From Burkholderiales bacterium (GTDB lineage Bacteria; Pseudomonadota; Gammaproteobacteria; Burkholderiales; JAEUOS01), in NCBI GenBank assembly GCA_947473125.1, contig CANJDH010000015.1, positions 184 through 64,183 on the forward strand: a stretch of DNA of 64,000 bases. Reading direction: 5' to 3'. Both the position numbers and the translations under genes were made by a program. The notes beneath the pieces were generated by a model. It worked only from the letters and a program-made list of their open reading frames with translations, did no database searches and was not told the DNA's origin. Numbering within the stretch: position 1 is the first letter of the stretch; each line of letters starts with the position of its first letter. Below are positions 45,673 through 60,100 of the stretch, piece after piece.

Positions 45673-46737
45673 TCATTGCAATGTCACCGGGATGCGCTTG
45701 CGCCCAAACGGCCGCTCGAATACGCCGAAGCGCCCGGCCACATGGGTGCCGCACTGGGCGCAGCGCTGCGCCTCGTTAATCCGGTAATCACCCGCTTCGT
45801 ACCAGTCGCGCCGCACCAGCCCGGCGCCACACCCGGGACACCAGGTCGACCCGCCCTCGGGGTCATGGATGTTGCCGGTGTAGACAAAATGCAGGCCTTC
45901 CTCTTGCGCGATGCGGCGCGCATGCCTGATCGTGGCAGGCGGCGTCGCTGCCTTGTCGGTCATCTTGAAATCGGGATGGAACGCCGTAAAGTGCAGCGGT
46001 ACGTCGGGCCCGAGTTCCGCGCGGATCCAGCGCGACAGCGCCCGCACTTCGTCATCCGAATCGTTTTCGCCAGGGATCAACAGCGTGGTGATCTCAAGCC
46101 AGCATGCAGTCTCGTTCTTTACATATGAGAGGGTGTCAAGAACGTCGGCAAGGCGCGCCGCGCACAGGTCTGCGTAGAACCTCTCGGTAAACCCCTTGAG
46201 ATCGATGTTGGCCGCATCCATTTTCGCGTAGAACTCGGCACGCGGGGCTGCGTGGATGTACCCCGCCGTCACCGCCACCGTTTGCACATCGACGGCATGG
46301 CACGCATCGGCCACATCCATCGCGTACTCGGCGAAGATCACCGGGTCGTTGTAGGTAAACGCCACCGAGCGTGCGCCGGCTGCCTGCGCAGCGCGCGCAA
46401 TCACTTCTGGCGACGCTGCGGCGCCCAGCTTGTCCATGTCGCGCGATTTCGAGATATCCCAGTTCTGGCAGAACTTGCAGGCCAGGTTGCAGCCGGCCGT
46501 GCCGAACGACAGCACGCTGGACCCGGGATAAAAATGATTCAACGGCTTTTTCTCGATCGGGTCGATGCAAAAACCCGACGACCTGCCGTAGGTGGTCAGC
46601 TGCATCGCATTGCCCTCGCGCTGGCGCACGAAACACGCGCCGCGCTGGCCTTCGTGCAGCTTGCAGTCACGCGGACACAGGTCGCACTGCACGCGTCCGT
46701 CGGGCAGTGCGTGCCACCAGCGCGCCGGATGGTTCAT
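45673..46737 (-). CDS. AmmeMemoRadiSam system radical SAM enzyme
   Basis: The N-terminus has the extra Cys motif CDLCPRDC. The product has the CNLACKFC radical SAM cluster motif and overall PFL-activase-like features. Its start overlaps the upstream stop (ATGA). Confidence 0.9.
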   Translation of the reverse strand: MNHPARWWHALPDGRVQCDLCPRDCKLHEGQRGACFVRQREGNAMQLTTYGRSSGFCIDPIEKKPLNHFYPGSSVLSFGTAGCNLACKFCQNWDISKSRDMDKLGAAASPEVIARAAQAAGARSVAFTYNDPVIFAEYAMDVADACHAVDVQTVAVTAGYIHAAPRAEFYAKMDAANIDLKGFTERFYADLCAARLADVLDTLSYVKNETACWLEITTLLIPGENDSDDEVRALSRWIRAELGPDVPLHFTAFHPDFKMTDKAATPPATIRHARRIAQEEGLHFVYTGNIHDPEGGSTWCPGCGAGLVRRDWYEAGDYRINEAQRCAQCGTHVAGRFGVFERPFGRKRIPVTLQ

Positions 46738-48170
46738 TCCGAAAATTTGGCCACGGCGTAGCGCAACACCCTAACGTCCTCCGACCAATAGGCGGCATCA
46801 AGCCCGGCCTTTTGCTTGAGCGCCGCGAGAAACGCACGCGGCTGCGGGATCTGCTCCCACACCTGGGGCAGAAAAGTCGAGCGCCGTCCCGCCGCCTCGA
46901 AAATCAGGCCATCCTGCAGCGGCGCCAGTTGTGCGGCCAGATCCGCCTCATCCGCGAACACCAGCGGTACGGGCGCGCTCAGCAAGGACACCTCGACCTG
47001 AATCGATGGCAGGTCCTGTGCCGTCACTGCGGCGAAACGCGGATCGCGTGATGCGGCCGCCACCGCATTCTCTGTGACGTCGACACCCAGCGCGCGATGC
47101 GCCGCAAGCGAACCGATGCAGCCACGCAGCGCGCCGTGTTGGGTCAGCGTGACAAAGGTGGCTGCGGCATTTTCGAGCCAGGGCACGGCCGCGAAAGGTG
47201 TGGCCGGCAGCCCCAGAAATCGCTCGATCGAAGCGCGCGCGAGGTGCACCAGCACCGCACCACCATCGGCTGGAAACCATTGCGGGACAACGGTTGCTGG
47301 CACATCTGCAGCCGCGGTGCCGGCTCCCTCGCGCGTTTCGGAGAGCGCGAATGCCGCGTAACCGACGACGCGATCGCGTCCGCCGGCGGTGTCGCCGGAG
47401 TTGCACTGGTCGATCAACTCGACTGCCATGCCGCGCCTGCGTACTACCTGCATCAAGGCGTTGACCGGCGTGGCGCCGCACGCCTGCTCATGGCTGATGC
47501 GCGCATCACCCGCGAGGACTGCCGCAACAGTGGCATTGTCGATACGCACCGCCTCCCGATACGGGTGGTAATGTGACAAGTCGCTGCTCACCACAATCAG
47601 GGTCTCCGCGCCGCCCCAGAGCAGGTCCAGTACCTCGGCCACCATGTCGGGAGTCGCCTCGCCCACCACCAGCGGCACCAATCTGAAATCACCCAGCGCT
47701 TCAACCAGAAACGGCAGCTGCACTTCGAGCGCATGCTCAGCCGCGTGGACCGGTCGCGCCGCCACCACCTGGCGCAGCGCGGCCAGCGCGCGCACCGCGT
47801 CGCGATCCACGGCGACCTGACCCAAAGGCGTTTCGAACGCATCGGCCTCAGGCAAGGCCAGGCCGCGCACATGGACCCGGTGCGCCGGCCCGAGCAACAC
47901 CACGCGGCGAATCGTGCCGCGCAGCGCACCCAGCCGCGCATAGGCGCGCGCCGCCGTCTGGCCCGAGTACACATACCCCGCGTGCGGCACGATCAGCGCT
48001 TTGGGCGGCGCGGGTTCCGGGCCTTCGGCCAACTCGGCGCGTGCCATGCGCAGCAATGCCTGCACGTTGTCCCGCAGGCGCCCCGGCTCTGCCGGATAAA
48101 ACGAGCCCGCCACGGCAGCGGGGCGCACCTCGGAGAGCCGCGCATCGCGGGCGTCAGCCAACGGCATCAT
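46734..48170 (-). CDS. Fused AmmeMemoRadiSam system protein B (Memo-like) and protein A (AMMECR1 domain)
   Basis: The N-terminal half has Memo motifs (VAGSFYP, IVPHAGYVYSG, DLSHY). The C-terminal half has the AMMECR1 motif GALRGCIGS. ATG 48170 overlaps the upstream stop (ATGA). Confidence 0.88.
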   Translation of the reverse strand: MMPLADARDARLSEVRPAAVAGSFYPAEPGRLRDNVQALLRMARAELAEGPEPAPPKALIVPHAGYVYSGQTAARAYARLGALRGTIRRVVLLGPAHRVHVRGLALPEADAFETPLGQVAVDRDAVRALAALRQVVAARPVHAAEHALEVQLPFLVEALGDFRLVPLVVGEATPDMVAEVLDLLWGGAETLIVVSSDLSHYHPYREAVRIDNATVAAVLAGDARISHEQACGATPVNALMQVVRRRGMAVELIDQCNSGDTAGGRDRVVGYAAFALSETREGAGTAAADVPATVVPQWFPADGGAVLVHLARASIERFLGLPATPFAAVPWLENAAATFVTLTQHGALRGCIGSLAAHRALGVDVTENAVAAASRDPRFAAVTAQDLPSIQVEVSLLSAPVPLVFADEADLAAQLAPLQDGLIFEAAGRRSTFLPQVWEQIPQPRAFLAALKQKAGLDAAYWSEDVRVLRYAVAKFSE

Positions 48171-49726
48171 GCCTTGACCTCGCGCCGCAGTTCCTTCCTG
48201 ACCTGGGCCACTACCGCATCCCAATCATTGAGCCCGGGTTGCCTGAACAGGCGCGCAGAGGGATACCACTCGCACGCGTCGCCATGGTCATGCCAGCGCC
48301 AATCCGCTTGCCACGGCAACAGTATCCACACCGGTCGGCCAAGGGCGCCGGCCAGATGCGCCACCGAGGTATCGACCGTGATGATCAGGTCGAGGTTCAT
48401 CATCAACGCCGCCGTGTCGGAAAAATCCTGAAGATCGCCGCTGACGTCAAGGATGCGCGCACGCGTACCCGGCGCGGCATCGGCCACCTGTCGCGCCGCC
48501 TCCCAGGTTTGCAGGGAGACGAATTGCATCCCCGACGCGTCGAGCAACGGTTCGAGCACTTGCAGGACCAGGCTCTTTTTGCGCGAGCGCCGCGCCGCCA
48601 CCGCATCTTGAATCGCCGGATTGGCCGCCCAGCACAAGCCGACGCGCTTGCCCGACACATGGCCCAGCTTGCCGGCCCAGACCGCCACCTTCGCCGCATC
48701 CGCCTTGAGATAGCCCTGCAACGGAGGAAAGCTGTCCCGCGAACGACGCCGCAAGCGCGGCAGGCTGCCGAACGGCACTTGATAGTGAATCGGCGCAGTC
48801 GTGTTCAACCACGGTACCGGCCGCCTGGTCCAGGCGTCCTCATCGGCGCGCAGTTGGTCGTGGATCGTGGCGCCGGGAAACGACGTGCGAAACAGCGGCG
48901 CCAGGTGCGGCTGGCAGCAGATGATCGCGTGGTGCGCCTCGGCAATCACTTCGGCATAGATCGACGCAAACATGATTTCGTCTCCCAAACCCTGCTCTCC
49001 GTGCAGGATGATGGTCTTGCCCGCCAGCGGCTCGCCCTCCCAGCGCGGAAACGGGTAGGGATAGTTCCAGACGTTCGAACCGACCGCGTCGAAGCGATAC
49101 TCGTACTCCTCCCAGCCGCGCTCAAAATTCCCCGTCATCAACAACCAGTGCGCATACTCCCAATGCGCACGCGCATCGGCGGAGGCCAGCGCAACGCTCC
49201 TCTCGTAGTGCGGTTTGGCCAAATCAAAGCGCCGCGCCGAATACAGCGCGATGGCCAGCGCCAGGGTCGCCGCCGCATCGTTCGGCTTCACCTGCAGGTG
49301 CTGCTGGTAGGCGGCAATGGCCTCGTCGAGCCGGTCGTTCTCGAGCAGGCCGTTACCGAGGTTGAGCCATGCCGACGCATGGGTCGGCTCCAGGCGCGCC
49401 GCCTCACGGTAGGCTGCCAGCGCGGCATCGGTACGCCTGAGCGCCCCGTACACCACGCCGAGGTTGTACTGAAACTGCGCCTGGACCGGATGGAGGCGTA
49501 CCGCCTTTTCAATCAAGGCGAGGGCAATCCCGTGCTTCCCGGCAAGATGCGCCAGCACCCCGGTCAAATGCAATGCATCCGGATTCTCCGGCTCGACCTC
49601 CATGATCTTCAGGCACAGGCTCTCGACCTCGGCCCGATTGCCTGCCTGAAACTGGCTCAGCGCCAATTGCACCGCGTCGGCGACCGACACCGCGGTGGGT
49701 TGCATGTTGCCTGCAGCGCGCTCCAT
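48167..49726 (-). CDS. TPR-repeat protein with C-terminal glycosyltransferase family 9 (heptosyltransferase)-like domain
   Basis: The N-terminus has about six TPR units. The C-terminal domain has GEQGLGDEIMFASIY and ITVDTSVAHLAGALGRPVW, which are typical of GT9-like folds. Confidence 0.8.
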   Translation of the reverse strand: MERAAGNMQPTAVSVADAVQLALSQFQAGNRAEVESLCLKIMEVEPENPDALHLTGVLAHLAGKHGIALALIEKAVRLHPVQAQFQYNLGVVYGALRRTDAALAAYREAARLEPTHASAWLNLGNGLLENDRLDEAIAAYQQHLQVKPNDAAATLALAIALYSARRFDLAKPHYERSVALASADARAHWEYAHWLLMTGNFERGWEEYEYRFDAVGSNVWNYPYPFPRWEGEPLAGKTIILHGEQGLGDEIMFASIYAEVIAEAHHAIICCQPHLAPLFRTSFPGATIHDQLRADEDAWTRRPVPWLNTTAPIHYQVPFGSLPRLRRRSRDSFPPLQGYLKADAAKVAVWAGKLGHVSGKRVGLCWAANPAIQDAVAARRSRKKSLVLQVLEPLLDASGMQFVSLQTWEAARQVADAAPGTRARILDVSGDLQDFSDTAALMMNLDLIITVDTSVAHLAGALGRPVWILLPWQADWRWHDHGDACEWYPSARLFRQPGLNDWDAVVAQVRKELRREVKA

Positions 49727-49849
49727 GGAAGAATTGTAGCGTTGGGCAGCGATTGCGCGGCAGCCGGGCGCACAACCATCGCGCTGCGGCCGTGCTACCC
49801 TTACGCTCCAGAATTCGGGGACATTTGAACGTCTGATTCAGGGAACCCT

Positions 49850-52789
49850 ATGGACAACCGCAGCATCTTCTCCAAGACCGGCAAAGGCTCACTGGAGATC
49901 ACCAAGAAAAGCATCAAGCTTTCCAGCGAAGAACGTCAGGCGTTGATCCTGGTCGATGGCAAGACCGCCTACGGCGAGTTGCAGGAAAAACTCAGCCGCG
50001 TCCCCCCGATGAAGCTGCGCGTGGTGTTTGACAAACTGGTCGAACTGGAATTGATTCGGGAATTTGTAGCAAAGGCCGAGCCGCCTGCGGCCGCGCCGGC
50101 GGTGGCCGTGGCAGCGAATTCGGTGCGCGCTCTTGATGGCGGCAGTGACCTCGATTTCACTGCACTGATTTCGCCTGCCAAACCCGCTCCTTCGGCGACT
50201 CCCGCTCCCCGCGCTCCCGCACCTGCCCCCGCGCCGGCACAGCCGGCCGTGGCGACGCCGAAGTCGACTGCGGACGCGGACGAGGAAGCGCGAAAATTCC
50301 ACGAACTGATGTTTGGCACTCCCAATGCAAGTACCGGCGCCGAAGCGGAAGCCACGCGCAAGGTGGAAGCCGACCGCGCCGCGCAGGAACAAGCCGCTCG
50401 CCAAGCCGCCGAGGCTGAAGCGCGCCGCCAAGCCGCTGCCGAAGCCGAGGAAGAAACACGCAAGGTGCGTGAAGAAATCCTCCGCAAGGAACAGGAACGC
50501 AAGGCTGCCGAACAGGCTGCCCAGGCTCGCGCCGCCGAAGAAGCAGCACGCCGCAAGGCCGAAGCCGAACGCCTCGCACGCGAGCAGCGCGAGCGCGAAG
50601 AGCGTGAACGCCTGGAGCGCGAGCGTGCCGAAAAGGAACGCCTCGAACGCGAGGAAGAAGCACGCCGCAAGGCCGAGGCCGAACGCATTGCCCGCGAGCA
50701 GCGCGAACGCGAAGAGCGTGAACGTCTGGAACGCGAACGCGCCGAAAAGGAACGCCAGGAGCGTGAAGAAGCGCAGCGCCGTGCCGCCGAAGAAGAGGTG
50801 CGTCGCAAGGCCGAGGCCGAACGCCTCGCCCGTGAGCAGCGCGAACGCGAAGAGCGTGAACGTCTGGAACGCGAACGCGCCGAAAAAGAACGCCAGGAGC
50901 GTGAACAAGCACAGCGCCGTGCCGCCGAGGAAGAGGCGCGCCGCAAGGCCGCCGCCGAGCAACATGCCCGCGAAGAGCAGGAGCTTGAGGCGCGCCATCG
51001 TGAAGAGCGCGAGAAGCTCGAGCGCAGTCGGCTCGCAAGGGGGCGGGAGGAACAGGAGCGCGCCGCAGCCGCCGCGCAGGCTGCTGCATCGTTGTCCGCT
51101 CCGCTTGCTTCGGCCGCACCTGCGATTGCGCTGGTTGAGCCCGCACCCGCGCCTGCGCCACCTGTACCGGCAGCGGCGACTGAAATTTCACCCCCGGCCC
51201 CGACTCCGGCGCCGGCCGCCGCAGATACAGGTTCACTTGATTTCAACGCCGAAGCCAAGGCGGCATTCGACGCCGACCTTGATTTCGCACCGGCTTCTTC
51301 CGAGCAGCGACGCAAGGCCGAAGTTGATCAGTTGCTCTCCAACACCGGCGGCGTGCCCCTGGACGGCGCTACCCCGTTGACCGGCGGCGGACCGGATACC
51401 TTCGGCGATACCGGGTCGGTGATCGATCCGTTCACCGATGACAGCACCGGCACCACCAAGGAACAGGAAGCCGCCTCGCGCAAGGAGATCGAGCAGGAGG
51501 CCAAGGAACGCGCCAAGGCGGAAGCCAAGGCGCAAAAGGAGGCGGAGCGCGAAGCCAAGCGCCTCGCCAAGGAAAATCGCGTCAAGGTGCCGGGCCGCGG
51601 GCCGTCGATCGGCGTCATCATTGCCGTGCTGCTGGTGTTCGGCCTGGTCGGCGGTGTCGGCTACCTGATGTTCAAGCCAATCGACAAAGCCGCGATCGAG
51701 CAAACGCTGAGCGAACGCCTGGGCGAGCCGGTCACGGTAGCCAGCGCCAAATTCTCGCCGTTCCCGCCGGAGCTCACCTTGGGCGGCATGACAGTCGGCG
51801 CACTCAAGCTCGGCAACGTGGTTGCGCGGCCCGACCCCTCTTCCCTGATTTCCGACCACAAGGTCTGGAAATCGGTCGAGGTCAGCGGCCTCTCGCTGAG
51901 CGCCGAAGCGGCGCGCGGCATACTCGCGCTAGCGACACGCGATGCCCCCAAGATCGCGGCCAGCCGCACCGAAATCCAGAAGGTACGCATCACCGACATG
52001 GAGATCACCGGGCTACCGGTGAGCGTCCCGAAATTCAACATCGACGCCCTGCTCAGCGCGTCTGGCGGCCTCAAGCAGGTCACCCTGGCGACAACCGATG
52101 ACAAAGTGCGGGCGCTGCTGCAACCCGACGAGAAAGGCTGGCTGGTCGACTTCGAATCACGCGGCCTACTGTGGCCGGTCGGGCCCAAGGTGGCCTGGGA
52201 ATCGATTCGCGGCAAGGGTGTCGCCAGCGCGCAAGGCATCAAGTTCGAGGACTACAGCATCACCCAATTCGGCGGCACCAGCCGCGGCGCGGGCGAGTTG
52301 AGCTGGAACGACGGCTGGAAGTTCAACGGCAACCTCGATACCGGCGGCCTTGAATCCGAACTCATCGCCAAGGCGTTTTACGACGCCACACCGGTGTCGG
52401 GCGGGATTGAAGGCAAACTGGCCATTTCGATGAGCGGCACCAGCCTCGCGCGCATGCTGCAAACGCCGCAGATCGACGGCGTGGTGAGCGTCAACAAGGC
52501 CATCGTCAAGGGTGTGGACCTGGCGCGCACCGCACAGACCGGCGCTGCCGCACCCGGCTCGACGCGCTTCTCCGATTTTTCGGCAACCATTGCCGCCAGC
52601 GGCGGCAGGCTGCAACTCAAGGACATCAAGGGCGTGTCCGGGCTGCTCACCGTGAGCGGACTGGCCGAAGTCGGGTCGGACAAAGCGCTCGGCGGCGCGC
52701 TCACGGTAGAGCTGGGCGTGGGCGGGTCGCGCGCCAAGGCCAATATCAAACTCTCGGGCACCGTGACTGACCCGAAGCTGAGCAAGTAA
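49850..52789 (+). CDS. 979-aa bitopic membrane protein with a long cytoplasmic E/R/K-rich region and an AsmA-like periplasmic domain
   Basis: Uninterrupted ORF with no signal peptide. Domain order is a small N-terminal domain, Pro/Ala-rich linkers, an E/R/K-rich repeat helix, one TM helix and an AsmA-like C-terminal domain. The single TM helix is IGVIIAVLLVFGLVGGVGYLMF. The C-terminal part contains FSPFPPELTLGGMTVG and TRFSDFSATIAASGGRLQLKDIKGVSGLLTVSGLAEV, which resemble AsmA-family N- and C-terminal motifs. Confidence 0.85.
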   Translation: MDNRSIFSKTGKGSLEITKKSIKLSSEERQALILVDGKTAYGELQEKLSRVPPMKLRVVFDKLVELELIREFVAKAEPPAAAPAVAVAANSVRALDGGSDLDFTALISPAKPAPSATPAPRAPAPAPAPAQPAVATPKSTADADEEARKFHELMFGTPNASTGAEAEATRKVEADRAAQEQAARQAAEAEARRQAAAEAEEETRKVREEILRKEQERKAAEQAAQARAAEEAARRKAEAERLAREQREREERERLERERAEKERLEREEEARRKAEAERIAREQREREERERLERERAEKERQEREEAQRRAAEEEVRRKAEAERLAREQREREERERLERERAEKERQEREQAQRRAAEEEARRKAAAEQHAREEQELEARHREEREKLERSRLARGREEQERAAAAAQAAASLSAPLASAAPAIALVEPAPAPAPPVPAAATEISPPAPTPAPAAADTGSLDFNAEAKAAFDADLDFAPASSEQRRKAEVDQLLSNTGGVPLDGATPLTGGGPDTFGDTGSVIDPFTDDSTGTTKEQEAASRKEIEQEAKERAKAEAKAQKEAEREAKRLAKENRVKVPGRGPSIGVIIAVLLVFGLVGGVGYLMFKPIDKAAIEQTLSERLGEPVTVASAKFSPFPPELTLGGMTVGALKLGNVVARPDPSSLISDHKVWKSVEVSGLSLSAEAARGILALATRDAPKIAASRTEIQKVRITDMEITGLPVSVPKFNIDALLSASGGLKQVTLATTDDKVRALLQPDEKGWLVDFESRGLLWPVGPKVAWESIRGKGVASAQGIKFEDYSITQFGGTSRGAGELSWNDGWKFNGNLDTGGLESELIAKAFYDATPVSGGIEGKLAISMSGTSLARMLQTPQIDGVVSVNKAIVKGVDLARTAQTGAAAPGSTRFSDFSATIAASGGRLQLKDIKGVSGLLTVSGLAEVGSDKALGGALTVELGVGGSRAKANIKLSGTVTDPKLSK
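50549..51076 (+). repeat. In-frame tandem DNA repeats (114, 138 and 138 bp plus one degenerate unit) encoding RRKAEAERLAREQREREERERLERERAEKER...
   Basis: Units start at 50549, 50663, 50801 and 50939 (CG[CT]CGCAAGGCCGA...). Units 2 and 3 are near-identical at the DNA level. Confidence 0.85.
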
Positions 52790-52874
52790 GCACAAGGCCT
52801 GCAGTAGCGTACGATTACCGACTTCAACCGCTGCCGGCTGGTCCTGGCTCAGAGGCAGGCACCTTGAGCAGCAA

Positions 52875-52907
52875 TAAAAAACGCGCTCCTTGGAGCGCGT
52901 TTTGTTT
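52875..52907. terminator. Bidirectional rho-independent terminator between convergent genes
   Basis: AAAAAACGCGCTCCTTGGAGCGCGTTTTGTTT. Confidence 0.8.
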
Positions 52908-52919
52908 GGGCCTGGCTGA

Positions 52920-53945
52920 TCAGAGCTTGCGGTCGCGCGATGCCGGCAAAAAGTTCGAATTGAAAATGCCGTCCGGGCTCACCGAATTCTTGATGCCGAA
53001 GGCGGTGACAACACGGTCGATGGTGTTGTCAAAGCGCAGCTTGTTGATGGCGCCGAGGCCCTCGCGGCGCGCCACCGGGGTATCGACAAACTCAAGCATC
53101 ATTTTCAGGCGCTTCAGTTCGGTCGCCTCGGTGACCAGCGGGTCCTTCTGCTTGACCAGGCCGATGAAGGCCTCAGGGTTGGCCACCACATCCTTGATGG
53201 CACGATTGACCGCGCGCAGGAAACCGCGCACCGCCTCGGGGTTCTCGGCGGCAAATTTCGGGTTGACGATGATCGCGTTGCCATACAGCTCGGCGCCAAA
53301 GTCGTTGTACTTCATCATCACGATGTCTTCTTCCTTGATGCCGCGCGCCGTAAGGCCGATGTAGCTCGTAAAGGTAAAGCCGGTAATGGCGTCGACCTCG
53401 CCACGCTGCAACATGGTTTCGCGCAATTGCGGGTCCATCGACTTCCAGCTCACTTTGGCAAGGTCGAGCTTGTTGGCGCGCGCCAAAATCGGAAACGCCT
53501 TGCGGCCAGCGTCAAACGACGGCGCCCCCAGGGTCTTGCCCGCAAGGTCGGCCGGGGTCTTGATGCCCGATTTCTTGAGCGCCAGCACGGCAGCCGGGGT
53601 CGACTCATACACCATGTAAATCGCCTGCGGCTTCGATTGCGCACCAGGATTGTTGCCGATGAACTCAATCAGTGCGCTCAGGTCGGCGAATCCCAATTCA
53701 TACGCGCCGGTCGCCACCCGGCCAACCGAGGCGCCCGAGCCGGTGCCCGAGTCGATCGTGACGTCGAGTTTTTCCTGCTTGAAATACCCCTTCGATGCCG
53801 CAGCCAGAAACAGCGCGGACGGGCCCTCAAAGCGCCAGTCGAGGGTGAATTTGATCTTGGTGTCTTGCGCCGCAGCCGAGAAAGACGCTGCGACAAGGGT
53901 CGCACCGACAAGGGCGCGAATGAGTTTACCTGCACGAATCAACAT
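52920..53945 (-). CDS. ABC transporter substrate-binding protein (NMT1/THI5-like, nitrate/sulfonate/bicarbonate type)
   Basis: The product has a signal peptide (LVAASFSAAAQD) and an NMT1-like periplasmic binding fold pattern. No permease or ATPase gene is adjacent. Confidence 0.85.
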   Translation of the reverse strand: MLIRAGKLIRALVGATLVAASFSAAAQDTKIKFTLDWRFEGPSALFLAAASKGYFKQEKLDVTIDSGTGSGASVGRVATGAYELGFADLSALIEFIGNNPGAQSKPQAIYMVYESTPAAVLALKKSGIKTPADLAGKTLGAPSFDAGRKAFPILARANKLDLAKVSWKSMDPQLRETMLQRGEVDAITGFTFTSYIGLTARGIKEEDIVMMKYNDFGAELYGNAIIVNPKFAAENPEAVRGFLRAVNRAIKDVVANPEAFIGLVKQKDPLVTEATELKRLKMMLEFVDTPVARREGLGAINKLRFDNTIDRVVTAFGIKNSVSPDGIFNSNFLPASRDRKL

Positions 53946-54116: not shown

Positions 54117-57100
54117 TCACTGAATGGTCACGGTGAAAGTTACAATGCCGGTCGCCTGGGGGTTCAACTGGCCGCTGAAATTCCAGACAAAAGCACCGCT
54201 CGCTCCGGCTCCCGGGTCGGTCAGGGCACCCGTCACGAGGCCGCCGGGAGTGGTGTTGAAAGCCGGAATGTCGGGTGCCGAGCCATTGTTGGTACGCACC
54301 GTAAACGGCGGCGTCGAGTCACGAATCACCAGCGAGGTCAAGCGCTCGCTGCTGGCGTTGGTGTAGATGATGCGGTATTGCAGTCGGTCGCCCACCTTGC
54401 CGCTGTTGTTGGTGCCGAATCCGGCGCCGCTGCTGGCCACGCACGCCGCCCCGCCCGGGTTCGCCGCAGCATTGTCGAGATTGCACACCTCTTTTTGCAG
54501 CCGCAAGCCATCGCCTCCCGTGGCCGAGCCCGACAGCGTCGTATCGACGACGGTGAGCGTGGTGCTCAGCGCCGGCAATGAGTTCGTGTAGCTGAAGGTC
54601 CCGGTCACTGTCGCCTGATTCTGCGCCCCGAACGGCGCACTTGGCGGGATTGACTCCTTGACGATGATACACAGGCGCCGTCCGCTCGGGTCACCTGCAA
54701 TGGTGTCGTTTGGATCGAGAAGCACGGTGCTGCCTGCCACGCCCGAGCCGCCGATGACCAGTGCGGTTTCGGCCGGATCAATCGTGCCGTTGCAATTCGA
54801 ATCCCGGTAAATCACCTCGCCCCAGCCGGTCATGTTCGGCCGGGCTACCGCATTGACGCTGAACACCACGCCGCCAACCGACCCCGGCACGTAGGTGTGC
54901 GGGTAGAACACCACCTCGCCGGGCGGCGCCTGTTTGGTCTGGTCAGCTGTAAAGCGGTTGATCGGTACGTCGCCAAAGTTAAGACTTTGATAGCTCGTAT
55001 TGGCCGCAGGCGCAAAGCTGATCGAATCCGCCGGGCGACTGGCGCACGTGGTGCCGGTAGCGGTACGGCAATAGGTATACCCACTGTTCGGAATATCGGA
55101 AATGAGCTGTGTAGCCCCCGCGCTGCCACCGGTCGACAGATGACCTTGCGGGTTGGTTTCGATGACACACAAAAGCGCCGGCGGCCCGGCCGGTACCGCA
55201 AAACGATAGTCACCACTGACGTCGGTAGTAGTGGTCGCATAGATGGTCGCGGCGCAGTTAGTCAATTGCACCGTCACACCCTGGATGCCCTGCCCCAGGT
55301 TGGCGGGTTGCTGCGGATTGGCAGGCGCCTCGACCCCCTGGAGAACACCATCATTGGCGGTGGCGCCGGCCCCGCCGGTATCCCTGAACACCTTGCCCGA
55401 AATCAACGCACCTGAGCGCAGGCCGATATTCCAGTTCGACGATGGAACCAGCCCGATGCTCACCGTGGCGTAACCACCGCTTGCCGGCGCCCGGAAGAAC
55501 CACGCCGTCGGCGCAACCGCCACCGCGTTGATGGCGCTGTTGGTCACGACGATCTGGTAATTGCCGGGATCCACGTTATTGAACGTAAAGTCACCAGTCC
55601 CCGGCGTTAGCGCGACCGACTGCACCACCAGCCCGCCGGTACCCACGAGGTTGACAAAGACGTTGACGCCGGTCGCCCAGGTCTCGCCGGGTGCGCCCAG
55701 GTCAAGCACGCCGTTATCGTTGGAATCCACATACACCCTGCCGCTCACCGGCACACCGGCGCTGTACACGATCAGGTAGGCCACGTTCGACTGCGAGCCT
55801 GCGGTCGGTGTTTGCGTGGTGGTCACGCCCGACGCGAAGTTGGGCCAGCCCAGCGCCGGACTGACCGAGCTGCTGGTCACGTCCACCGTGACGCTACACG
55901 AACCGCCGCCCGGAATATCGCCGCCGGTCACGGTAAACGAGGTGTTGCCGCCGCTGGCAGTGCTGCTCACGCTGGCGCAGGTGCCGCGCACGTTGGGCAC
56001 CGCCGCCAGTTGCATGTTGGTCAGGCCATCGGTAAACGACATGCCGGTGAGCGTCACGCTATTCGGGTTGGTCACCGTAAAGGTCATGCTCGCCACCCCT
56101 CCAACGGGAATCGACGGCACACCAAACGCCTTGCTGATCGAAGGCGCTGCCGCGTTCACGGTCAGGTTGGCAACGTTGCTGGGCGACCCGGTGACGCCGG
56201 GGGTCACGACATTGGCGGTGACGCCAGTGGTCGAATTGGGCAAGGTGCCCGGCGTATCGGACGTCACCGGCACATCGATCCGGCAGGTGCCGGGCGTTGC
56301 ACTGACGCGCGCCGGCACCACCGCACTGGTGCTGCCGGTGCCGCTTAACCGGACGCCGATTGCCCCGCCTTGCGTGCCGGACCAGACCCCGGTACCTGCC
56401 AGGAACTGGACGGTGCTCACACCGCAGGTGTTGACCACGGTCCCGCTGGTCGTCACGCGCATGTTGGAGAACGGGTCGCTAAACATGACTGTCGCGCCCG
56501 AAGTTGCGATCGATGCATTGAGGTTGCTCAGCACAAACGACATGGTTGCCACGCCGCCGGCGGAAATGGTTGACGGCGTGAACGACTTGGTGATCTCGAC
56601 GGCCGATGGCGGCAACGGCGCTACCGTCAGGGTTGCATTGGTCAGGTTGCCGGTGCCGCTTGAGGCGCTCACGGTGCCGGTCACGTTGTTGAACGTGCCC
56701 GATCTGGTCGCCTGGACGTTGACGGTGATAGTGCAGGTGGTCGGCGAGCCGAGCGAACCGGCGCCGAGCAGGCCGTTGACCAGGCTGATGACATTGGTGC
56801 CGGGCGTGGCTGTCAGCGTACCGTTGCAGTTGTTGATTGCGCCCGACGGGCTGTCGATCACCATCCCTGCGGGCATGGTATCGGTGAAGGCAAGGGTGTC
56901 AATTTCGACCGTGTGCCGATTTTGGATCGTGAAGGTCAGCGCAGTGGTCTGGCCGATGGTGACGCTGCTCGGGCTGAAGGATTTCGCAATCGTCGGCGGA
57001 GCGGTCACGATCAGGGTTGCAGTGGCATTGTTGCCGACGTGGGTGCTCGATGTGATCGGGGTCGTACTGTTGTTGAACGCTCCCGGAACACTGGTTGTGA

Positions 57101-60100
57101 CCCTGACCGTTACCGTGCACACAGTACCGATCGCCGCAGCGCCTGCGAACGCACCGAGGGTCGCAATCACGCCGGTATCACCCGCAGAAATCGCGCCGCC
57201 GAACAAATCGGTGCGAGTGAACCCACACCCGCCGGCTTGGGCGGAAGTATTGTCGAACAGGGTCATGCCAGCGGGGAACACATCACGAAACGTCATGTTC
57301 GCTTGTGCGGCAAGCGAATTCTTGGTGATACTAAACACCAGGTCTGACTGCCCCCCCACCGCTATCGGGTTGGTGCTGAACGCCTTGGTAATCGACATCG
57401 GTCGTGTTGCCGTGCCGACCGACAATGTGGCGCTGGCCGGCGCGATCGGGCTGCCGGCATTGGTGGTCGTCACGCCGCTCGTCGCCACCGTATTGGTGAT
57501 ATTGACGTTGTTGACCGTGCTTTCTACGTTCACGGAAATAGTGCAACTCCCCGATGCCGGAATCGCCCCGCCGGTCAGGGTAAGCGAGGTGGCCAGTGCT
57601 GCAGAAGTTGCCGTTCCGGCACATCCGTTCACCAAATTCGGCGTCGCGGTGGTGCGCAGATTTGCCGGGTAGGCATCGGTGAGATCCACGCCTGTGATGG
57701 GCACGCCATTCGGATTGATCAAGGTCAACGTCATAACGGTGGCGGTGACAGCAGCGCCAACCGTCGAGGGTGTGAAGGACTTGCTGATCGATGGAGGCGC
57801 CATCACCGTCAATTGCGCCGTCGCCTGCGTTCCGCTGGCGCCGGCAGGTTGGGCCAGCGTGATTGCGCCGGTAGAGTTGGTGTACAGGCCCATGGCGCTG
57901 GCCGTCACTTGCCGGGTGTAGACGCAGGTGCCGCCGGCGGGGATCACAAAGTTGGTGCCCCCGGTACCAAGTGCGGCAAACGAGTTGCCGTTGGCGGCCG
58001 CCGTAAACGATTGCACCACGCAGCCGGCGCCCGTGACCGTGCCGCCCGCCGCTGCGGTGTTGGTAATGCCTGTCGGGTAGGTATCGGTAAACACGGTGGC
58101 CGCACTGGTGGCAGCAACGCTGTTCGGGTTGAATACCGATATCGACAAGGTACTCACGCCCCCTGCCGCAATGGTCGAGGGAGTAAACGTCTTGGTGGCG
58201 ATCACCGGCGCGGTGGTGCTTGCCGGCGGGTTGACCACCAAGGTGCCTGAGGTACTTGCCGTGCTGCCGGCGTTACCCGTCGTGGTGATGCCCGTGCTGT
58301 TGAGGAACACGCCACCGGTGTTGGATGTCACGTTCACGGTCAGCGTACACGTGGTATTTGCCGGCACGGTGCCGCTGTAGCTCAACTGGTTGTCGTTCGC
58401 AATGCCGGTAATCGTGCCCGCAGCCGCACACCCCGCGCCGCCAATGGCAGGTGTCGGCGTCGCGGTGTTGATCATCCCCGACGGATACACGTCCGTCAGG
58501 GCGACGCCGGTAACGTTCGCGCCTGCGGTCGGGTTGGGATTGAACAAGCTGATTGTCATCACCGATGCCACACCGGCGTTCACCGTAGTGGGCAAGAAGC
58601 TCTTGCTCACCCGCAGCGGTTGCAGCACGGTCAATGCGCTGCTCGCTGCCGCACCGCTGGGCGCATTGCTCGCGGTGATCGTGCCGGTACTGTTGAGGTA
58701 GATTCCTGCCGCGCTTGCCTGCACATTGACGCTGACCGTGCATGACCCGTTTGCCGGGATGGTGCCACCGCTGAGGGCCACGAGCGACCCGTTGTTGGCT
58801 GCGCTCACCGAACCTCCGCTGCAGGTGGTGGTGCCGGCCGGCGACGCGGTGTTGGTCATGTTCGCCGGGTAGTTGTCGGTAAACGCCCCTCCGGTGATCG
58901 CAAATCCGTTCGAGTTGCTCAAGGTAATCGTCAACACCGATGCGACGTTGGCACCCACAGTGGCTGGGCTGAAGCTTTTCACGACCGTCGGGGCGGCCAT
59001 GGCGCGCAAGATGTCGGTCGCGGTATTGCCGACGGTCGCCCCGGAGGTCACCGCGTTCGTCACGTTCACGTAGCTGCCAGCGGATGCTCCCGCAGCCACC
59101 GCGACGCTGAACACACAGGTGCCGGAAGTCGCCACGGTCGCGTTATTGAGGCGGATGGTTGCCGGTCCGTTTGAGGTCGTCAGCGTGCCGCCGCACATCG
59201 CAGTGCTTGCCGGCGTAACCACTGTCATGGTTGCAGGAACCGTCGGCAACAGGTCAGTCAACCCCACCTGGGTCATCGGTGCGGCATTCGGATTGGTAAT
59301 CGTGAAGGTCAGCGTCGAGGTGCCGCTGGGCTGCACCGGGTTGACGGTAAATACCTTGCTCACAAACGGTCGCGCAACGCTGAGTGAACTGTTTGCCGCC
59401 GCAGCGTTGCTGCCCGCATTCGACGTCGTCACCGCGCCGGCGCCTATGGTGTTGTTATACGAGCCCGCTGTCGCCGAAGCCCTGATGTTGACGGTGACTG
59501 TACAGGTGCTGTTGGGAGAGATTGTGCCGCCGGACAGCGCTATCGACGCGCCTGCATTTGCGGATGTCACGGTACCACCGGCGCAGGTAGTGGCGCCGTT
59601 GTCCGGCGTATCGTTGGTGTAAATGCCCGCGACCACCGGGTAGGTATCAGTGAACCCGACGCCGGTGATCGGCGTGGTGTTCGGGTTGGTGAGCGAAATA
59701 ATCAAGGTCGACGCGCCATTCGCCGCGACCGCGGGAGGAACAAACACCTTCGACACGGTCGGGGGCAGCAGTACGGTCAGGGTCGCGCTGGCCGGCAAAT
59801 TGTTGGCGCCGCCGGTCGACGTCAGGGCGCCAGCCGGCACCGTATTCACATAGGGTCCCGCCGCCGCCGCAGTAACCCGCACCGTGAGAATGCAATTGCC
59901 GTTGCTAGGCAAATAGAGATTTGTGGCGCTGAGGTTGGCCGCCCCCGCAGTGGCTGTCAGCGTGGGTGCTGCCGTCAATGGCACGCCATTGCAGGTGGTC
60001 GCCGCGTTCGACGGGTTCGCATTGACCATCCCTGCCGGATAGCTGTCCACCAGCGCACCGGCGCTGGCCGCAATGCTGCTCGGATTGAGAATCGTGAAGG

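What the first reader, a model, noticed from the sequence alone, without database searches (positions are those of the whole stretch)
49850..52789. Bitopic protein joining a long cytoplasmic E/R/K-rich helix to an AsmA-like periplasmic domain
Seen in sequence: the 979-aa ORF has no signal peptide. It starts with a ~75-aa globular-looking domain (MDNRSIFSKTGKGSLEITKKSIKLSSEERQALILVDGKTAYGELQ...). A Pro/Ala-rich linker follows, then ~240 aa made almost only of E, R, K, A and Q. After a second Pro/Ala linker and a short K/E-rich segment comes a single TM helix near codons 586-608. The last ~370 aa begin and end with AsmA-like motifs. Established: AsmA-family proteins (AsmA, YhdP, TamB, YdbH) normally start directly with their membrane anchor and act in the periplasm in outer-membrane lipid homeostasis. 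E/R/K-rich sequences can form stable single alpha helices used as rigid spacers. Inference: with basic residues before the TM helix and no signal peptide, the charged helix should be cytoplasmic. That would put a long ruler- or tether-like element on the inner face of an AsmA-like envelope protein. I do not recognise this architecture as described.
Basis: partly seen in the sequence, partly recalled or inferred. Interest (0 to 1): 0.72.

Follow-up and report, generated by a model that had tools for sequence, protein, structure and literature searches.

The report
Mini-AsmA protein with long cytoplasmic stalk
This is a real, conserved inner-membrane protein that joins a small periplasmic AsmA-type (lipid-groove) domain to a long charged cytoplasmic stalk ending in a winged-helix-like head. 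The layout is common in environmental bacteria, I found no description of it, and it suggests that some AsmA-like envelope proteins connect directly to the cytoplasm.

Summary
The last ~395 aa (one TM helix plus a beta-rich domain) are a shortened AsmA-family module. Direct Pfam hits are below threshold (DUF748 25 bits), but an exhaustive profile search finds 1473 relatives. Several of those pass Pfam's AsmA cut-off, and an iterated profile aligns colinearly with E. coli AsmA. The 585 aa before the TM helix are almost certainly cytoplasmic. There is no other hydrophobic segment, the N-side flank is basic, the head resembles winged-helix domains, and a sister subfamily has a class III nucleotide cyclase domain at the same place. 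The E/R-rich stretch (aa 166-410) has 0 Pro and 1 Gly, no heptad hydrophobic seam, and strong i/i+3 and i/i+4 charge pairing (z=7), as in single alpha helices. The architecture is a large unnamed family: 69 of 148 top representatives and at least 372 metagenome loci. The stalk length varies and a conserved DLDF peptide motif follows the head. Searches of the held literature found no description. The function is inferred only: most likely a trans-membrane tether or scaffold linking a cytoplasmic partner to an envelope lipid-handling site. I rate it a new variant of a known kind.

The parts
49727..49849 (+). Divergent intergenic region with an AGGGA Shine-Dalgarno-like box about 7 nt before the ATG
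   Evidence: Sequence read. No sigma-70 consensus was found. The upstream gene 48167-49726 is on the minus strand.
49850..52789 (+). Whole gene: 979 codons plus stop
   Evidence: It is the only ORF in the window that matches the family's N-domain and C-domain profiles.
49850..50074 (+). N-terminal head, aa 1-75: winged-helix-like domain with a conserved basic N-terminal hairpin (K9, T10, K12, G13, E16)
   Evidence: It is the most conserved part of the protein (0.81-0.91 identity over aa 1-40). A profile of 43 N-domains hits solved winged-helix regulators at E 1.6e-4 to 3.4e-4. Per-member Pfam hits are nearly all wHTH families. The AF2 model has low confidence: beta-hairpin plus 4 helices, pLDDT 54.
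50075..50344 (+). Pro/Ala-rich linker 1, aa 76-165
   Evidence: Composition A 32%, P 19%. Conservation is low.
50147..50158 (+). DLDF short linear motif, aa 100-103 (family consensus [DE]DLDF[TS])
   Evidence: Present 80-117 aa from the N-terminus in 39 of 65 family representatives, against 0.3% of shuffled regions.
50345..51079 (+). E/R/A-rich stalk, aa 166-410: predicted single alpha helix, about 37 nm if fully helical
   Evidence: It has 76 E, 61 R, 12 K, 0 P, 1 G and net charge -4. The i/i+3 plus i/i+4 opposite-charge score is 99 against 0.4 +/- 13.9 in 2000 shuffles (z=7.1). The best-phase a/d hydrophobic fraction is 0.09.
50536..51012 (+). Tandem DNA repeats (periods 114 and 138 nt, 2.1-2.6 copies, 81-87% matches) encoding three copies of RRKAEAER...REQREREERERLERERAEKER
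   Evidence: The pre-TM length varies from 457 to 674 aa among close relatives.
51080..51469 (+). Pro/Ala-rich and Gly/Thr/Asp-rich linker 2, aa 411-540, with further acidic-Phe motifs (SLDF 462-465, DLDF 476-479, DTF, DPF)
   Evidence: Part of it is absent from more distant family members (gap fraction 0.6-0.7 over aa 421-500).
51470..51604 (+). Conserved K/E-rich juxtamembrane segment, aa 541-585, net charge +5
   Evidence: Identity 0.59-0.68 across the close family. Charge. The basic N-side flank is RLAKENRVKVPGRGP.
51605..51673 (+). Single transmembrane helix, S586-F608
   Evidence: It is the only strong hydropathy peak (2.57). It is helical in the AF2 model. It aligns with the N-terminal anchor of E. 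coli AsmA (AsmA 9-112 to profile positions 4-100).
51674..52786 (+). Periplasmic shortened AsmA-type domain, aa 609-979, about 26 beta-strands with a conserved C-terminal GT(V/L)(T/A)(D/E)PK end
   Evidence: AF2 pLDDT 79, pTM 0.70, almost all beta. The length is constant at 367-371 aa in all relatives.
52878..52903 (.). Palindromic terminator-like hairpin (11 pairs, A-run before, T-run after) between this gene and the convergent NMT1-type gene

Best explanation
The gene encodes a bitopic inner-membrane protein with its N-terminus in the cytoplasm and its C-terminus in the periplasm.

Shown in silico:
- The TM helix plus the last ~370 aa are a shortened member of the AsmA family. They keep the N-terminal (chorein-like) start and the C-terminal end of AsmA and lack about 240 aa of its middle.
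- The 585 aa before the TM helix consist of a ~75-aa winged-helix-like head, a conserved DLDF peptide motif, Pro/Ala linkers, a ~245-aa E/R-rich stretch with the sequence signature of a stable single alpha helix, and a conserved basic juxtamembrane segment.

Inferred:
- At ~370 aa the periplasmic domain is too short to bridge to the outer membrane alone. It would act as an inner-membrane-anchored lipid- or acyl-chain-binding groove, or as the first segment of a bridge completed by an unknown partner.
- The cytoplasmic part works as a long tether of evolvable length whose head and DLDF motif dock a cytoplasmic partner. That partner is more likely a protein than DNA.
- The protein would therefore physically couple a cytoplasmic component to an envelope lipid-handling site, as a scaffold, positioning or regulatory link.

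My probability for the architecture and topology is about 0.85. My probability for the tether/scaffold function is about 0.35.
For: AsmA identity:
- Sub-threshold but consistent AsmA-clan hits: DUF748 in 12/12 close homologues and YhdP in 9/12.
- The exhaustive profile search found 1473 relatives. Of the ten scanned, seven pass Pfam AsmA's 29.8-bit cut-off: P0054 68, P0160 67, P0058 58, P0123 49, P0116 46, P0065 41 and P0098 38 bits. P0106 also passes at 30.6 bits.
- The iterated profile scores 38.6 bits on E. coli AsmA, colinearly.
- The AF2 model is almost all beta, pLDDT 79.

Topology:
- One TM helix, no signal peptide, N-flank +5.
- Winged-helix-like head.
- A class III cyclase domain with retained metal-binding and catalytic motifs sits in the pre-TM region of subfamily members P0037, P0080, P0084, P0090 and P0174.

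Stalk: charge-pair z=7.1, 0 Pro, 1 Gly, no heptad seam. Its length varies from 457 to 674 aa in close relatives and from about 240 to 980 aa in the wider family, while the C-domain stays at 367-371 aa.

Head as the functional end: it is the best-conserved segment. It occurs almost only in this architecture (57/62 ORFs). The DLDF motif is present in 39/65 representatives against 0.3% of shuffles.

Independent unit: the gene stands alone between a divergent and a convergent gene with a terminator hairpin. No functionally telling neighbour is conserved.
Against: - No experiment exists, and topology is only predicted.
- The window protein itself does not reach any curated AsmA-clan threshold.
- hhalign against the single E. 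coli AsmA sequence gives only 3.8% probability.
- Foldseek of the C-domain model against PDB finds nothing (best E 0.014, TM 0.16), so the beta-taco fold and hydrophobic groove are not verified.
- The N-domain model has low confidence (pLDDT 54) and its fold search is not significant.
- A polyampholyte such as (E/R)n could be disordered rather than a rigid helix.
- No partner is identified, so 'tether/scaffold' describes the shape more than it demonstrates a mechanism.
Confidence: 0.55

Rival explanations
1. Membrane-tethered transcription factor of the ToxR/CadC type. The winged-helix head binds DNA and the periplasmic AsmA-like domain senses envelope lipid status. The long stalk lets the head reach the nucleoid, or the head is released by regulated proteolysis.
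For: The N-domain profile's best solved relatives are DNA-binding winged-helix regulators of the Lrp/AsnC, HxlR and MarR types (E 1.6e-4 to 3e-3). Pfam sub-threshold hits are to HTH_24, TrmB, HTH_47 and MarR. The first 40 aa are basic, with mean net charge +3.8.
Against: The predicted recognition helix (aa 53-66) is the least conserved part. It is neutral to acidic (aa 41-75 mean net charge -0.8), and its conserved positions are buried hydrophobics. The invariant surface residues sit in the N-terminal hairpin instead. No candidate target gene or operon is conserved next to the gene. The head is not an OmpR-type wHTH as in ToxR and CadC. RRE/PqqD peptide-binding winged helices are also among the hits.
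Confidence: 0.15
2. Signal receptor. The shortened AsmA domain is a periplasmic lipid sensor, and the cytoplasmic region is the output or adaptor of a signalling pathway, as suggested by relatives that carry a nucleotide cyclase.
For: Subfamily members of 1340-1380 aa have a class III cyclase domain above Pfam threshold (30-34 bits against GA 21.9) with FxDvvGYT, DTGDGAA and GDGINDAQR motifs, placed between the charged helix and the TM helix.
Against: The window protein has no enzymatic or known output domain. In the cyclase subfamily about 200 aa of low-complexity linker separate the cyclase from the TM helix. Conformational signalling across the membrane is therefore unlikely, and the AsmA part looks more like an anchor. 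A single TM helix followed by flexible linkers is a poor transducer.
Confidence: 0.15
3. Landmark or hub protein comparable to FimV/HubP. The periplasmic domain fixes the protein at a particular envelope site such as a pole or septum. The long charged, repeat-rich cytoplasmic region with its SLiMs recruits several client proteins.
For: There is a large, low-complexity, repeat-bearing, net acidic (-13) cytoplasmic region with several acidic-Phe motifs. The repeat number is variable. The gene stands alone.
Against: There is no LysM or other peptidoglycan-binding domain, and no TPR or FimV C-terminal motif. No localisation data exist. This reading overlaps with the best explanation rather than excluding it.
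Confidence: 0.12
4. TolA-like arrangement, in which the charged helix is a periplasmic spacer.
For: The composition resembles TolA domain II (E/K/A-rich). This comparison is from my own knowledge.
Against: The charged region is N-terminal to the only TM helix, and there is no signal peptide or second hydrophobic segment. Exporting 585 highly charged residues as an N-tail is implausible. It would also put the AsmA domain in the cytoplasm. Homologues carry a cyclase domain in the same region.
Confidence: 0.02
5. Artefact: a chimeric ORF created by mis-assembly across a repeat, or two genes fused by a sequencing error.
For: The repeat region does break metagenome assemblies. Many database gene calls start inside it, and L001 has a scaffold gap there.
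Against: The same continuous head-stalk-TM-AsmA ORF occurs in a complete 6.9-Mb chromosome (L009) and five other loci. It also occurs in 69 cluster representatives and in 57 of 62 metagenome ORFs.
Confidence: 0.01

Closest known systems
Short E. coli AsmA-like proteins (AsmA 617 aa, YicH, YhjG; Pfam PF05170, clan CL0401)
   Same: A single TM anchor is directly followed by a beta-rich periplasmic domain. The iterated profile aligns the TM plus start with AsmA 9-112 and the distal part with AsmA 354-524. Relatives pass the PF05170 threshold. Like these proteins, it is probably too short to span the periplasm alone (PMC10345924).
   Different: The periplasmic domain is shorter still (~370 aa), lacking about 240 aa of AsmA's middle. 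It is preceded by 585 cytoplasmic residues, whereas all described bacterial AsmA-like proteins begin with the TM helix (PMC10345924; PMC10900882).
Small AsmA-like proteins GspN/PulN (T2SS) and P. aeruginosa PA2708
   Same: They are small inner-membrane-anchored beta-taco proteins that cannot bridge the envelope (PMC12802150; PMC10900882). Two of 12 close homologues give weak T2SSN hits.
   Different: There are no T2SS genes nearby. GspN and PA2708 have no cytoplasmic extension.
ZipA and RodZ (bitopic division/elongation tethers; comparison from my own knowledge)
   Same: They are bitopic proteins in which a globular cytoplasmic binding domain is joined to the membrane by charged and Pro-rich linkers. 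RodZ has an N-terminal cytoplasmic HTH, one TM helix and a periplasmic domain.
   Different: No sequence relationship was detected. RodZ's HTH is Xre-type and its periplasmic part is not AsmA-like. ZipA has the opposite orientation.
FimV/HubP polar hubs (comparison from my own knowledge)
   Same: A periplasmic anchoring domain, one TM helix and a very long acidic, repeat-containing cytoplasmic region that recruits partners.
   Different: There is no LysM domain and no FimV C-terminal motif. The periplasmic domain here is a lipid-groove type, not a peptidoglycan binder.
ToxR/CadC membrane-bound transcription factors (comparison from my own knowledge)
   Same: An N-terminal cytoplasmic winged-helix domain, a linker, a single TM helix and a periplasmic domain.
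   Different: The head is not OmpR-type and its recognition helix is not conserved. The linker is about 10 times longer. The periplasmic domain is AsmA-like.
E/R/K-rich single alpha helices (e.g. the KER region of CAF-1, bioRxiv 10.1101/2022.10.11.511754, listed; myosin-type SAHs from my own knowledge)
   Same: The composition and the i/i+4 charge pattern match, with no hydrophobic seam and no helix breakers.
   Different: This is a bacterial, membrane-tethered protein, and at ~245 aa the stretch is very long. It is R-rich rather than K-rich. The helical state is untested.

Membership tests
AsmA-like family (Pfam clan CL0401) | Match to a clan HMM at the curated threshold, tested on the window protein itself | tested here: inconclusive
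   DUF748 gives 25.3 bits (GA 50, E 5e-6), YhdP 16.7 bits (GA 46) and TIGR03545 26.5 bits (cut-off 173), all over aa 590-738. The hits are below threshold but consistent: DUF748 in 12/12 and YhdP in 9/12 close homologues.
AsmA-like family (Pfam clan CL0401) | Homology to bona fide AsmA proteins through intermediates or an iterated profile | tested here: met
   Relatives found at E 1e-44 to 1e-55 pass the PF05170 GA of 29.8 bits: P0054 68.2, P0160 66.9, P0058 58, P0123 49.2, P0116 46.4, P0065 40.7 and P0098 37.7 bits. A second-iteration profile of 125 C-domains scores 38.6 bits on E. coli AsmA, colinearly. Sources name the relatives 'AsmA family protein' and 'uncharacterized protein involved in outer membrane biogenesis'.
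AsmA-like family (Pfam clan CL0401) | A single TM helix immediately before the periplasmic domain, serving as the inner-membrane anchor | tested here: met
   TM helix S586-F608 is followed directly by the beta-rich domain. It aligns with the AsmA anchor. The difference is that it is internal rather than N-terminal.
AsmA-like family (Pfam clan CL0401) | Repeating beta-groove (beta-taco) fold with a hydrophobic groove | tested here: inconclusive
   The AF2 model (pLDDT 79) has about 26 strands in groups of 4-6 separated by short helices, as expected. Foldseek against PDB found no match (best E 0.014, TM 0.16).
AsmA-like family (Pfam clan CL0401) | Periplasmic location of the beta-rich domain | not testable with these tools
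   This is predicted only, from the absence of a signal peptide, a single TM helix, a basic N-side flank and cytoplasm-type domains N-terminal to the TM helix. It needs PhoA/LacZ fusions.
AsmA-like family (Pfam clan CL0401) | Lipid transfer or outer-membrane homeostasis function, with an intermembrane bridge (alone or with an outer-membrane partner) | not testable with these tools
   At ~370 aa the domain is well below YdbH (869 residues as given in that review), which needs a partner to reach the outer membrane (PMC10345924). No YnbE- or TamA-like gene lies nearby.
Single alpha helix (SAH) domains | High E/K/R content with enriched opposite charges at i/i+3 and i/i+4 | tested here: met
   aa 166-410 score 99 against 0.4 +/- 13.9 in shuffles, z=7.1, with 0 of 2000 shuffles reaching the observed value.
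Single alpha helix (SAH) domains | No heptad hydrophobic seam and no helix breakers | tested here: met
   The best-phase a/d hydrophobic fraction is 0.09 overall and at most 0.25 locally. There are 0 Pro and 1 Gly in 245 aa.
Single alpha helix (SAH) domains | A stable monomeric helix in solution | not testable with these tools
   This needs CD, AUC or SAXS.
Winged helix-turn-helix domains | Profile similarity to known wHTH domains | tested here: met
   The profile of 43 N-domains against PDB gives top hits that are nearly all wHTH regulators (7fby 1.6e-4, 9w4v 3.2e-4, 1yyv 3.4e-4, MarR/AdcR types). Per-member Pfam hits: TrmB in 14/43, HTH_47 in 9 and HTH_24 in 6 (best 5.4e-6), all below or near GA.
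Winged helix-turn-helix domains | Three-helix bundle plus beta wing in a confident model | tested here: inconclusive
   The AF2 model has pLDDT 53.7, with a hairpin at 14-23 and helices at 26-34, 41-50, 55-65 and 68-74. The Foldseek best hit has E 2.0.
Winged helix-turn-helix domains | A conserved, basic or polar recognition helix, as expected for DNA binding | tested here: not met
   Columns 53-66 are variable and neutral to acidic apart from buried Leu residues. The conserved charged residues lie at K9, K12, E16, K20, D36 and K38.
TolA-like periplasmic spacers | An N-terminal TM anchor followed by the charged helix on the periplasmic side | tested here: not met
   The charged helix precedes the only TM helix.
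FimV/HubP | A periplasmic LysM peptidoglycan-binding domain | tested here: not met
   There is no LysM or FimV hit in Pfam or NCBIfam at E<=1.

The most novel reading that the evidence does not exclude
The shortened AsmA domain is not a lipid conduit. It is an envelope lipid-sensing or site-marking module that is wired directly to cytoplasmic machinery. The output would be a nucleotide cyclase in one subfamily and a winged-helix/DLDF docking head on a ~40-nm stalk in the window type. That would be the first case of a bridge-like-lipid-transfer-type domain used for trans-membrane signalling or positioning, with stalk length acting as a molecular ruler between the inner membrane and a cytoplasmic target such as the nucleoid or a cytoskeletal or division protein.
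Probability: 0.2. Interest if true: 0.8.

Novelty: new variant of a known kind. Interest (0 to 1): 0.6.

Why it matters
Bacterial AsmA-like proteins (YhdP, TamB, YdbH and others) are the leading candidates for phospholipid transport to the outer membrane. It is not known how they are regulated, positioned or coupled to the cytoplasm. All described members have only a bare N-terminal anchor.

A large family in which a shortened AsmA module is covalently joined to a conserved cytoplasmic head, a peptide motif, a stalk of variable length and, in a sister subfamily, a nucleotide cyclase, provides a concrete handle. The head can be used as bait to find the first cytoplasmic partner of an AsmA-type protein. 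It would also be an unusually long bacterial single-alpha-helix candidate. The weakness is that every member found so far comes from uncultured organisms, and the function is inferred only from architecture.

Tried and rejected
- Foldseek of the C-domain model against PDB gave no meaningful hit. It therefore neither supports nor refutes the beta-taco fold.
- A PDB sequence-profile search with A1 gave only low-complexity noise.
- hhalign of the family alignment against the single E. coli AsmA sequence gave 3.8% probability. I replaced it with an iterated HMM.
- The N-domain AF2 model had low confidence, and its Foldseek search was not significant.
- The first PDB profile search with the 8 close N-domains was dominated by summed repeat hits to designer PPR proteins, which I reject as noise.
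- Word-index searches with the N-domain found only fragments.
I redid it with subgroup alignment A6.
- Two Pfam calls exceeded the residue limit.
- The neighbourhood analysis found only lineage-specific synteny with housekeeping genes: the NMT1-type gene in the close family, and oxoprolinase-like and purL genes in another subgroup. No functional partner emerged.
- tblastn against PLSDB plasmids found no match.
- Seven literature searches found nothing on this architecture or on a DLDF motif: AsmA-like with cytoplasmic or N-terminal extension, DUF748, winged helix/SAH, cytoplasmic domain, RBG domain architecture, adenylate cyclase, and DLDF.
- I rejected the TolA-like, ToxR-like-membership and assembly-artefact readings. 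The reasons are given under the rival explanations.
- From memory, I noticed that [DE]DLDF[TS]A[LF] loosely resembles the FtsZ C-terminal peptide (D-[IY]-LDIPAFL). A six-residue likeness cannot be tested here, so I keep it only as a lead.

Full report
**1. The observation**

The ORF at 49850-52789 (+) exists as described: ATG start, 979 codons, the longest ORF at this position. An AGGGA box lies about 7 nt upstream of the ATG. The gene sits between a divergent minus-strand gene (48167-49726, TPR repeats plus a weak Glyco_transf_9 hit) and a convergent minus-strand NMT1-type binding-protein gene (52920-53945). A palindromic terminator-like hairpin lies in the convergent gap at 52878-52903. It therefore looks like a stand-alone transcription unit.

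- aa 1-75: mixed composition.
- aa 76-150: A 32%, P 19%.
- aa 176-425: E 30%, R 24%, A 24%, Q 8%, K 4%.
- aa 426-500: A/P-rich.
- aa 501-545: G/T/D-rich.
- aa 546-585: E/A/K/R-rich.
- A single strong hydropathy peak, giving a TM helix at S586-F608.
- No N-terminal hydrophobic segment.

The DNA encoding aa ~230-388 contains tandem repeats of 114 and 138 nt at 81-87% identity. These encode three copies of RRKAEAER...REQREREERERLERERAEKER.

**2. It is a real, conserved gene**

The C-terminal 409 aa find 19 database proteins at 44-75% identity. All are metagenomic and unnamed. Most of those gene calls start inside the charged repeat, because the repeat breaks assemblies or misleads start calling. 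In locus L001 the called 668-aa protein is really part of an ORF of at least 924 aa. That ORF has a scaffold gap in the repeat and the same N-terminal domain.

A scan of one genome per GTDB species found 11 loci, all in uncultured Burkholderiales MAGs. One of them is a complete 6.9-Mb chromosome. Every locus with an intact 5' end (6 loci, plus the window) has the full head-stalk-TM-C-domain ORF. The pre-TM part varies from 457 to 674 aa, while the post-TM part is fixed at 367-371 aa.

Across nine close full-length sequences the best-conserved segment is the first 40 aa (0.81-0.91 identity). Next come the K/E-rich juxtamembrane segment and parts of the C-domain. The linkers and the stalk are poorly conserved in sequence.

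**3. The C-terminal module is a shortened AsmA**

Direct scans give only sub-threshold hits over aa ~590-738: DUF748 at 25 bits, YhdP at 17 bits and TIGR03545 at 26.5 bits. They are consistent, however. DUF748 hits 12/12 close homologues and YhdP 9/12, with occasional TamB, T2SSN and AsmA hits. All these families are AsmA-like.

An exhaustive profile search with the TM helix plus C-domain (12 sequences) found 1473 cluster representatives at E<=1e-3 and 457 at E<=1e-30. Relatives at E 1e-44 to 1e-55 pass Pfam's curated AsmA cut-off:
- P0054, P0058, P0160, P0116 and P0123 pass.
- P0065 and P0098, which have the same full architecture as the window protein, also pass.
- NCBI names P0054 'AsmA family protein', and JGI names another relative 'uncharacterized protein involved in outer membrane biogenesis'.

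A second-iteration profile built from 125 C-domains scores 38.6 bits on E. coli AsmA. The TM helix and start align to AsmA 9-112, and the distal part aligns to AsmA 354-524. The domain therefore keeps both ends of AsmA and lacks about 240 residues of its middle.

AlphaFold2 with the family alignment gives pLDDT 79 and pTM 0.70. The model has a TM helix followed by about 26 beta-strands in groups separated by short helices. Foldseek against PDB found nothing and I had no access to the coordinates. The beta-taco fold and hydrophobic groove are therefore expected but not verified. hhalign against the single AsmA sequence was weak.

**4. Topology**

- There is only one TM helix and no signal peptide.
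- The 15 residues before the helix carry five basic residues and one acidic residue. The 15 after it are net neutral.
- The TM helix is homologous to the N-in anchor of AsmA.
- The pre-TM region contains domain types that work in the cytoplasm.
- The head is winged-helix-like (see section 5).
- Family members of 1340-1380 aa (P0037, P0080, P0084, P0090, P0174) carry a class III adenylate/guanylate cyclase domain above Pfam threshold between the charged helix and the TM helix.
- That cyclase domain retains the FxDvvGYT, DTGDGAA and GDGINDAQR motifs.

Exporting 585 highly charged residues as an N-tail is implausible. I therefore accept N-in/C-out with about 0.9 probability. It remains a prediction.

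**5. The cytoplasmic part**

(a) Head, aa 1-75.
- Pfam and NCBIfam have no model for it.
- A profile of 43 diverse N-domains hits solved winged-helix regulators of the Lrp/AsnC, HxlR and MarR/AdcR types at E 1.6e-4 to 3e-3. It also hits RRE/PqqD-type peptide-binding winged helices more weakly.
- Individual members give sub-threshold hits almost exclusively to wHTH families: TrmB in 14/43, HTH_47 in 9 and HTH_24 in 6, with a best E of 5e-6.
- The AF2 model has low confidence (pLDDT 54): a hairpin and then four helices.
- Column statistics show that the invariant surface residues lie in the N-terminal hairpin and helix 1 (K9, T10, K12, G13, E16, K20, D36-G37-K38). The would-be recognition helix is variable and neutral to acidic.
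- I therefore favour protein or peptide binding over sequence-specific DNA binding.

(b) DLDF motif. A motif [DE]DLDF[TS] follows the head at 80-117 aa in 39 of 65 representatives, against 0.3% of shuffled regions. The window has it at aa 100-103, and it has related SLDF, DLDF, DTF and DPF motifs in linker 2.

(c) Stalk, aa 166-410.
- It has 76 E, 61 R, 12 K, no Pro and one Gly, with net charge -4.
- Its i/i+3 plus i/i+4 opposite-charge score lies 7.1 SD above shuffles.
- Hydrophobic residues at a/d positions never exceed 0.25 locally.
- This is the signature of a single alpha helix rather than a coiled coil. Fully helical, it would be about 37 nm long.

(d) Juxtamembrane segment. A conserved basic K/E-rich segment of +5 net charge precedes the TM helix.

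**6. How widespread it is**

Of the 148 best representatives from the exhaustive search:
- 69 have the N-domain at residue 1, an extension with a median of about 557 aa, a single TM helix and one C-domain.
- 41 have an extension but no detectable head. Many of these start inside the charged repeat, so they are probably truncated gene calls.
- 30 start with the TM helix, as ordinary short or longer AsmA proteins do.

A metagenome scan with a subgroup N-domain alignment found 372 loci. Of the 80 loci retrieved, 57 of the 62 ORFs whose ends could be determined carry the C-domain. The five exceptions are short ORFs, most on short contigs, and probably frameshifts.

The head is thus essentially dedicated to this architecture. 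Gene neighbourhoods are lineage-specific and housekeeping. No plasmid homologue exists in PLSDB.

**7. Mechanism**

What is shown is the architecture. What follows is inferred.

The ~370-aa AsmA module is much shorter than YdbH, which already needs YnbE to reach the outer membrane (PMC10345924; PMC11126948, listed). It is similar in scale to GspN and PA2708, small AsmA-like proteins that do not bridge the envelope (PMC12802150; PMC10900882). The window protein's module probably acts at or near the inner membrane as a lipid- or acyl-binding groove, or as the base of a bridge completed by a partner.

The cytoplasmic part has the anatomy of a tether. It has a conserved docking end (head plus DLDF), a spacer whose length evolves freely through repeat gain and loss, and a conserved membrane-proximal segment. 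My best reading (about 0.35) is a scaffold that couples a cytoplasmic partner to an envelope lipid-handling site.

The rivals are:
- a ToxR-like membrane-tethered regulator (0.15);
- a receptor-type signalling protein (0.15);
- a FimV/HubP-like landmark hub (0.12);
- a TolA-like periplasmic spacer (0.02);
- an assembly artefact (0.01).

**8. Comparison and novelty**

Membership in the AsmA family is supported by transitive and iterated profile evidence, but not by any curated threshold on the window protein itself.

In the papers I read, bacterial AsmA-like proteins are described as having an N-terminal TM helix and nothing on the cytoplasmic side. Seven full-text searches found no description of this extension, of an AsmA-cyclase fusion, or of the DLDF motif. 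Absence from the held library is not proof of absence from the literature.

I classify it as a new variant of a known kind. Interest is 0.6. The architecture is solid, widespread and unexpected for the field, and it gives a testable entry point, using the head as bait. However, no function is shown and no cultured carrier was identified.

Noticed in passing
window 54117-63962 (-): A giant 3281-aa ORF with 16 DUF7933 repeats (924 bits) plus SdrD_B and DUF11 domains, which looks like a large surface or adhesin-type repeat protein. Related giant ORFs lie at the same relative position in L002 and L003.
   Followed up: partly
window 45673-48224 (-): A radical SAM gene (45673-46737) followed by a Memo-AMMECR1 fusion gene (46734-48224), together resembling the 'AmmeMemoRadiSam' trio. 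It is conserved next to the family gene only in L004 and L010.
   Followed up: no
window 48167-49726 (-): A TPR-repeat protein with a weak C-terminal Glyco_transf_9 (heptosyltransferase family) hit, transcribed divergently from the target gene with a 123-bp gap. It is envelope-related, but it is a neighbour only in part of the close family.
   Followed up: partly
window 52920-53945 (-) and 52878-52903: An NMT1/THI5-type binding-protein gene lies convergent to the target. It is 80-85% identical in 10 of the 11 loci with a hit and partly matched in the eleventh (L002). A palindromic hairpin that could terminate both genes lies between them.
   Followed up: partly
related proteins P0037, P0080, P0084, P0090, P0174: A sister subfamily (1340-1380 aa) has a class III adenylate/guanylate cyclase domain, with metal-binding and catalytic motifs retained, inserted between a ~500-aa K/A/E-rich helix and the TM helix of the shortened AsmA. 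I found no description of an AsmA-anchored cyclase.
   Followed up: partly
window 50147-50158 (aa 100-103); also aa 462-465 and 476-479: A conserved short linear motif [DE]DLDF[TS] follows the head domain in 39/65 family representatives, against 0.3% of shuffles. From memory it loosely resembles the FtsZ C-terminal peptide (LDIPAFL). That resemblance is untested.
   Followed up: partly
P0001-P0019, L001 7233-10007: Public gene calls for this family are systematically truncated. Starts are placed inside the charged repeat, or contigs break there, and L001 has a run of N inside the repeat. Database lengths of 384-714 aa therefore understate the true ~850-1060 aa. P0010 (513 aa) joins the first 18 aa of the head directly to linker 2, which is probably an assembly collapse.
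   Followed up: partly
L014 and about 38 other metagenome loci (L016-L095): In the 'TKTAKG' subgroup of the family the gene is flanked on the same strand by an oxoprolinase/hydantoinase-like gene upstream and by purL downstream. This is conserved synteny with housekeeping genes and has no obvious functional link.
   Followed up: partly
window 49889-52795, minus strand and other frames: Many long overlapping ORFs (up to 448 aa) lie on the opposite strand and in other frames of the target gene. This is expected for 65-70% GC DNA and for repeats that are free of stop codons. None of them matched the family profiles.
   Followed up: yes
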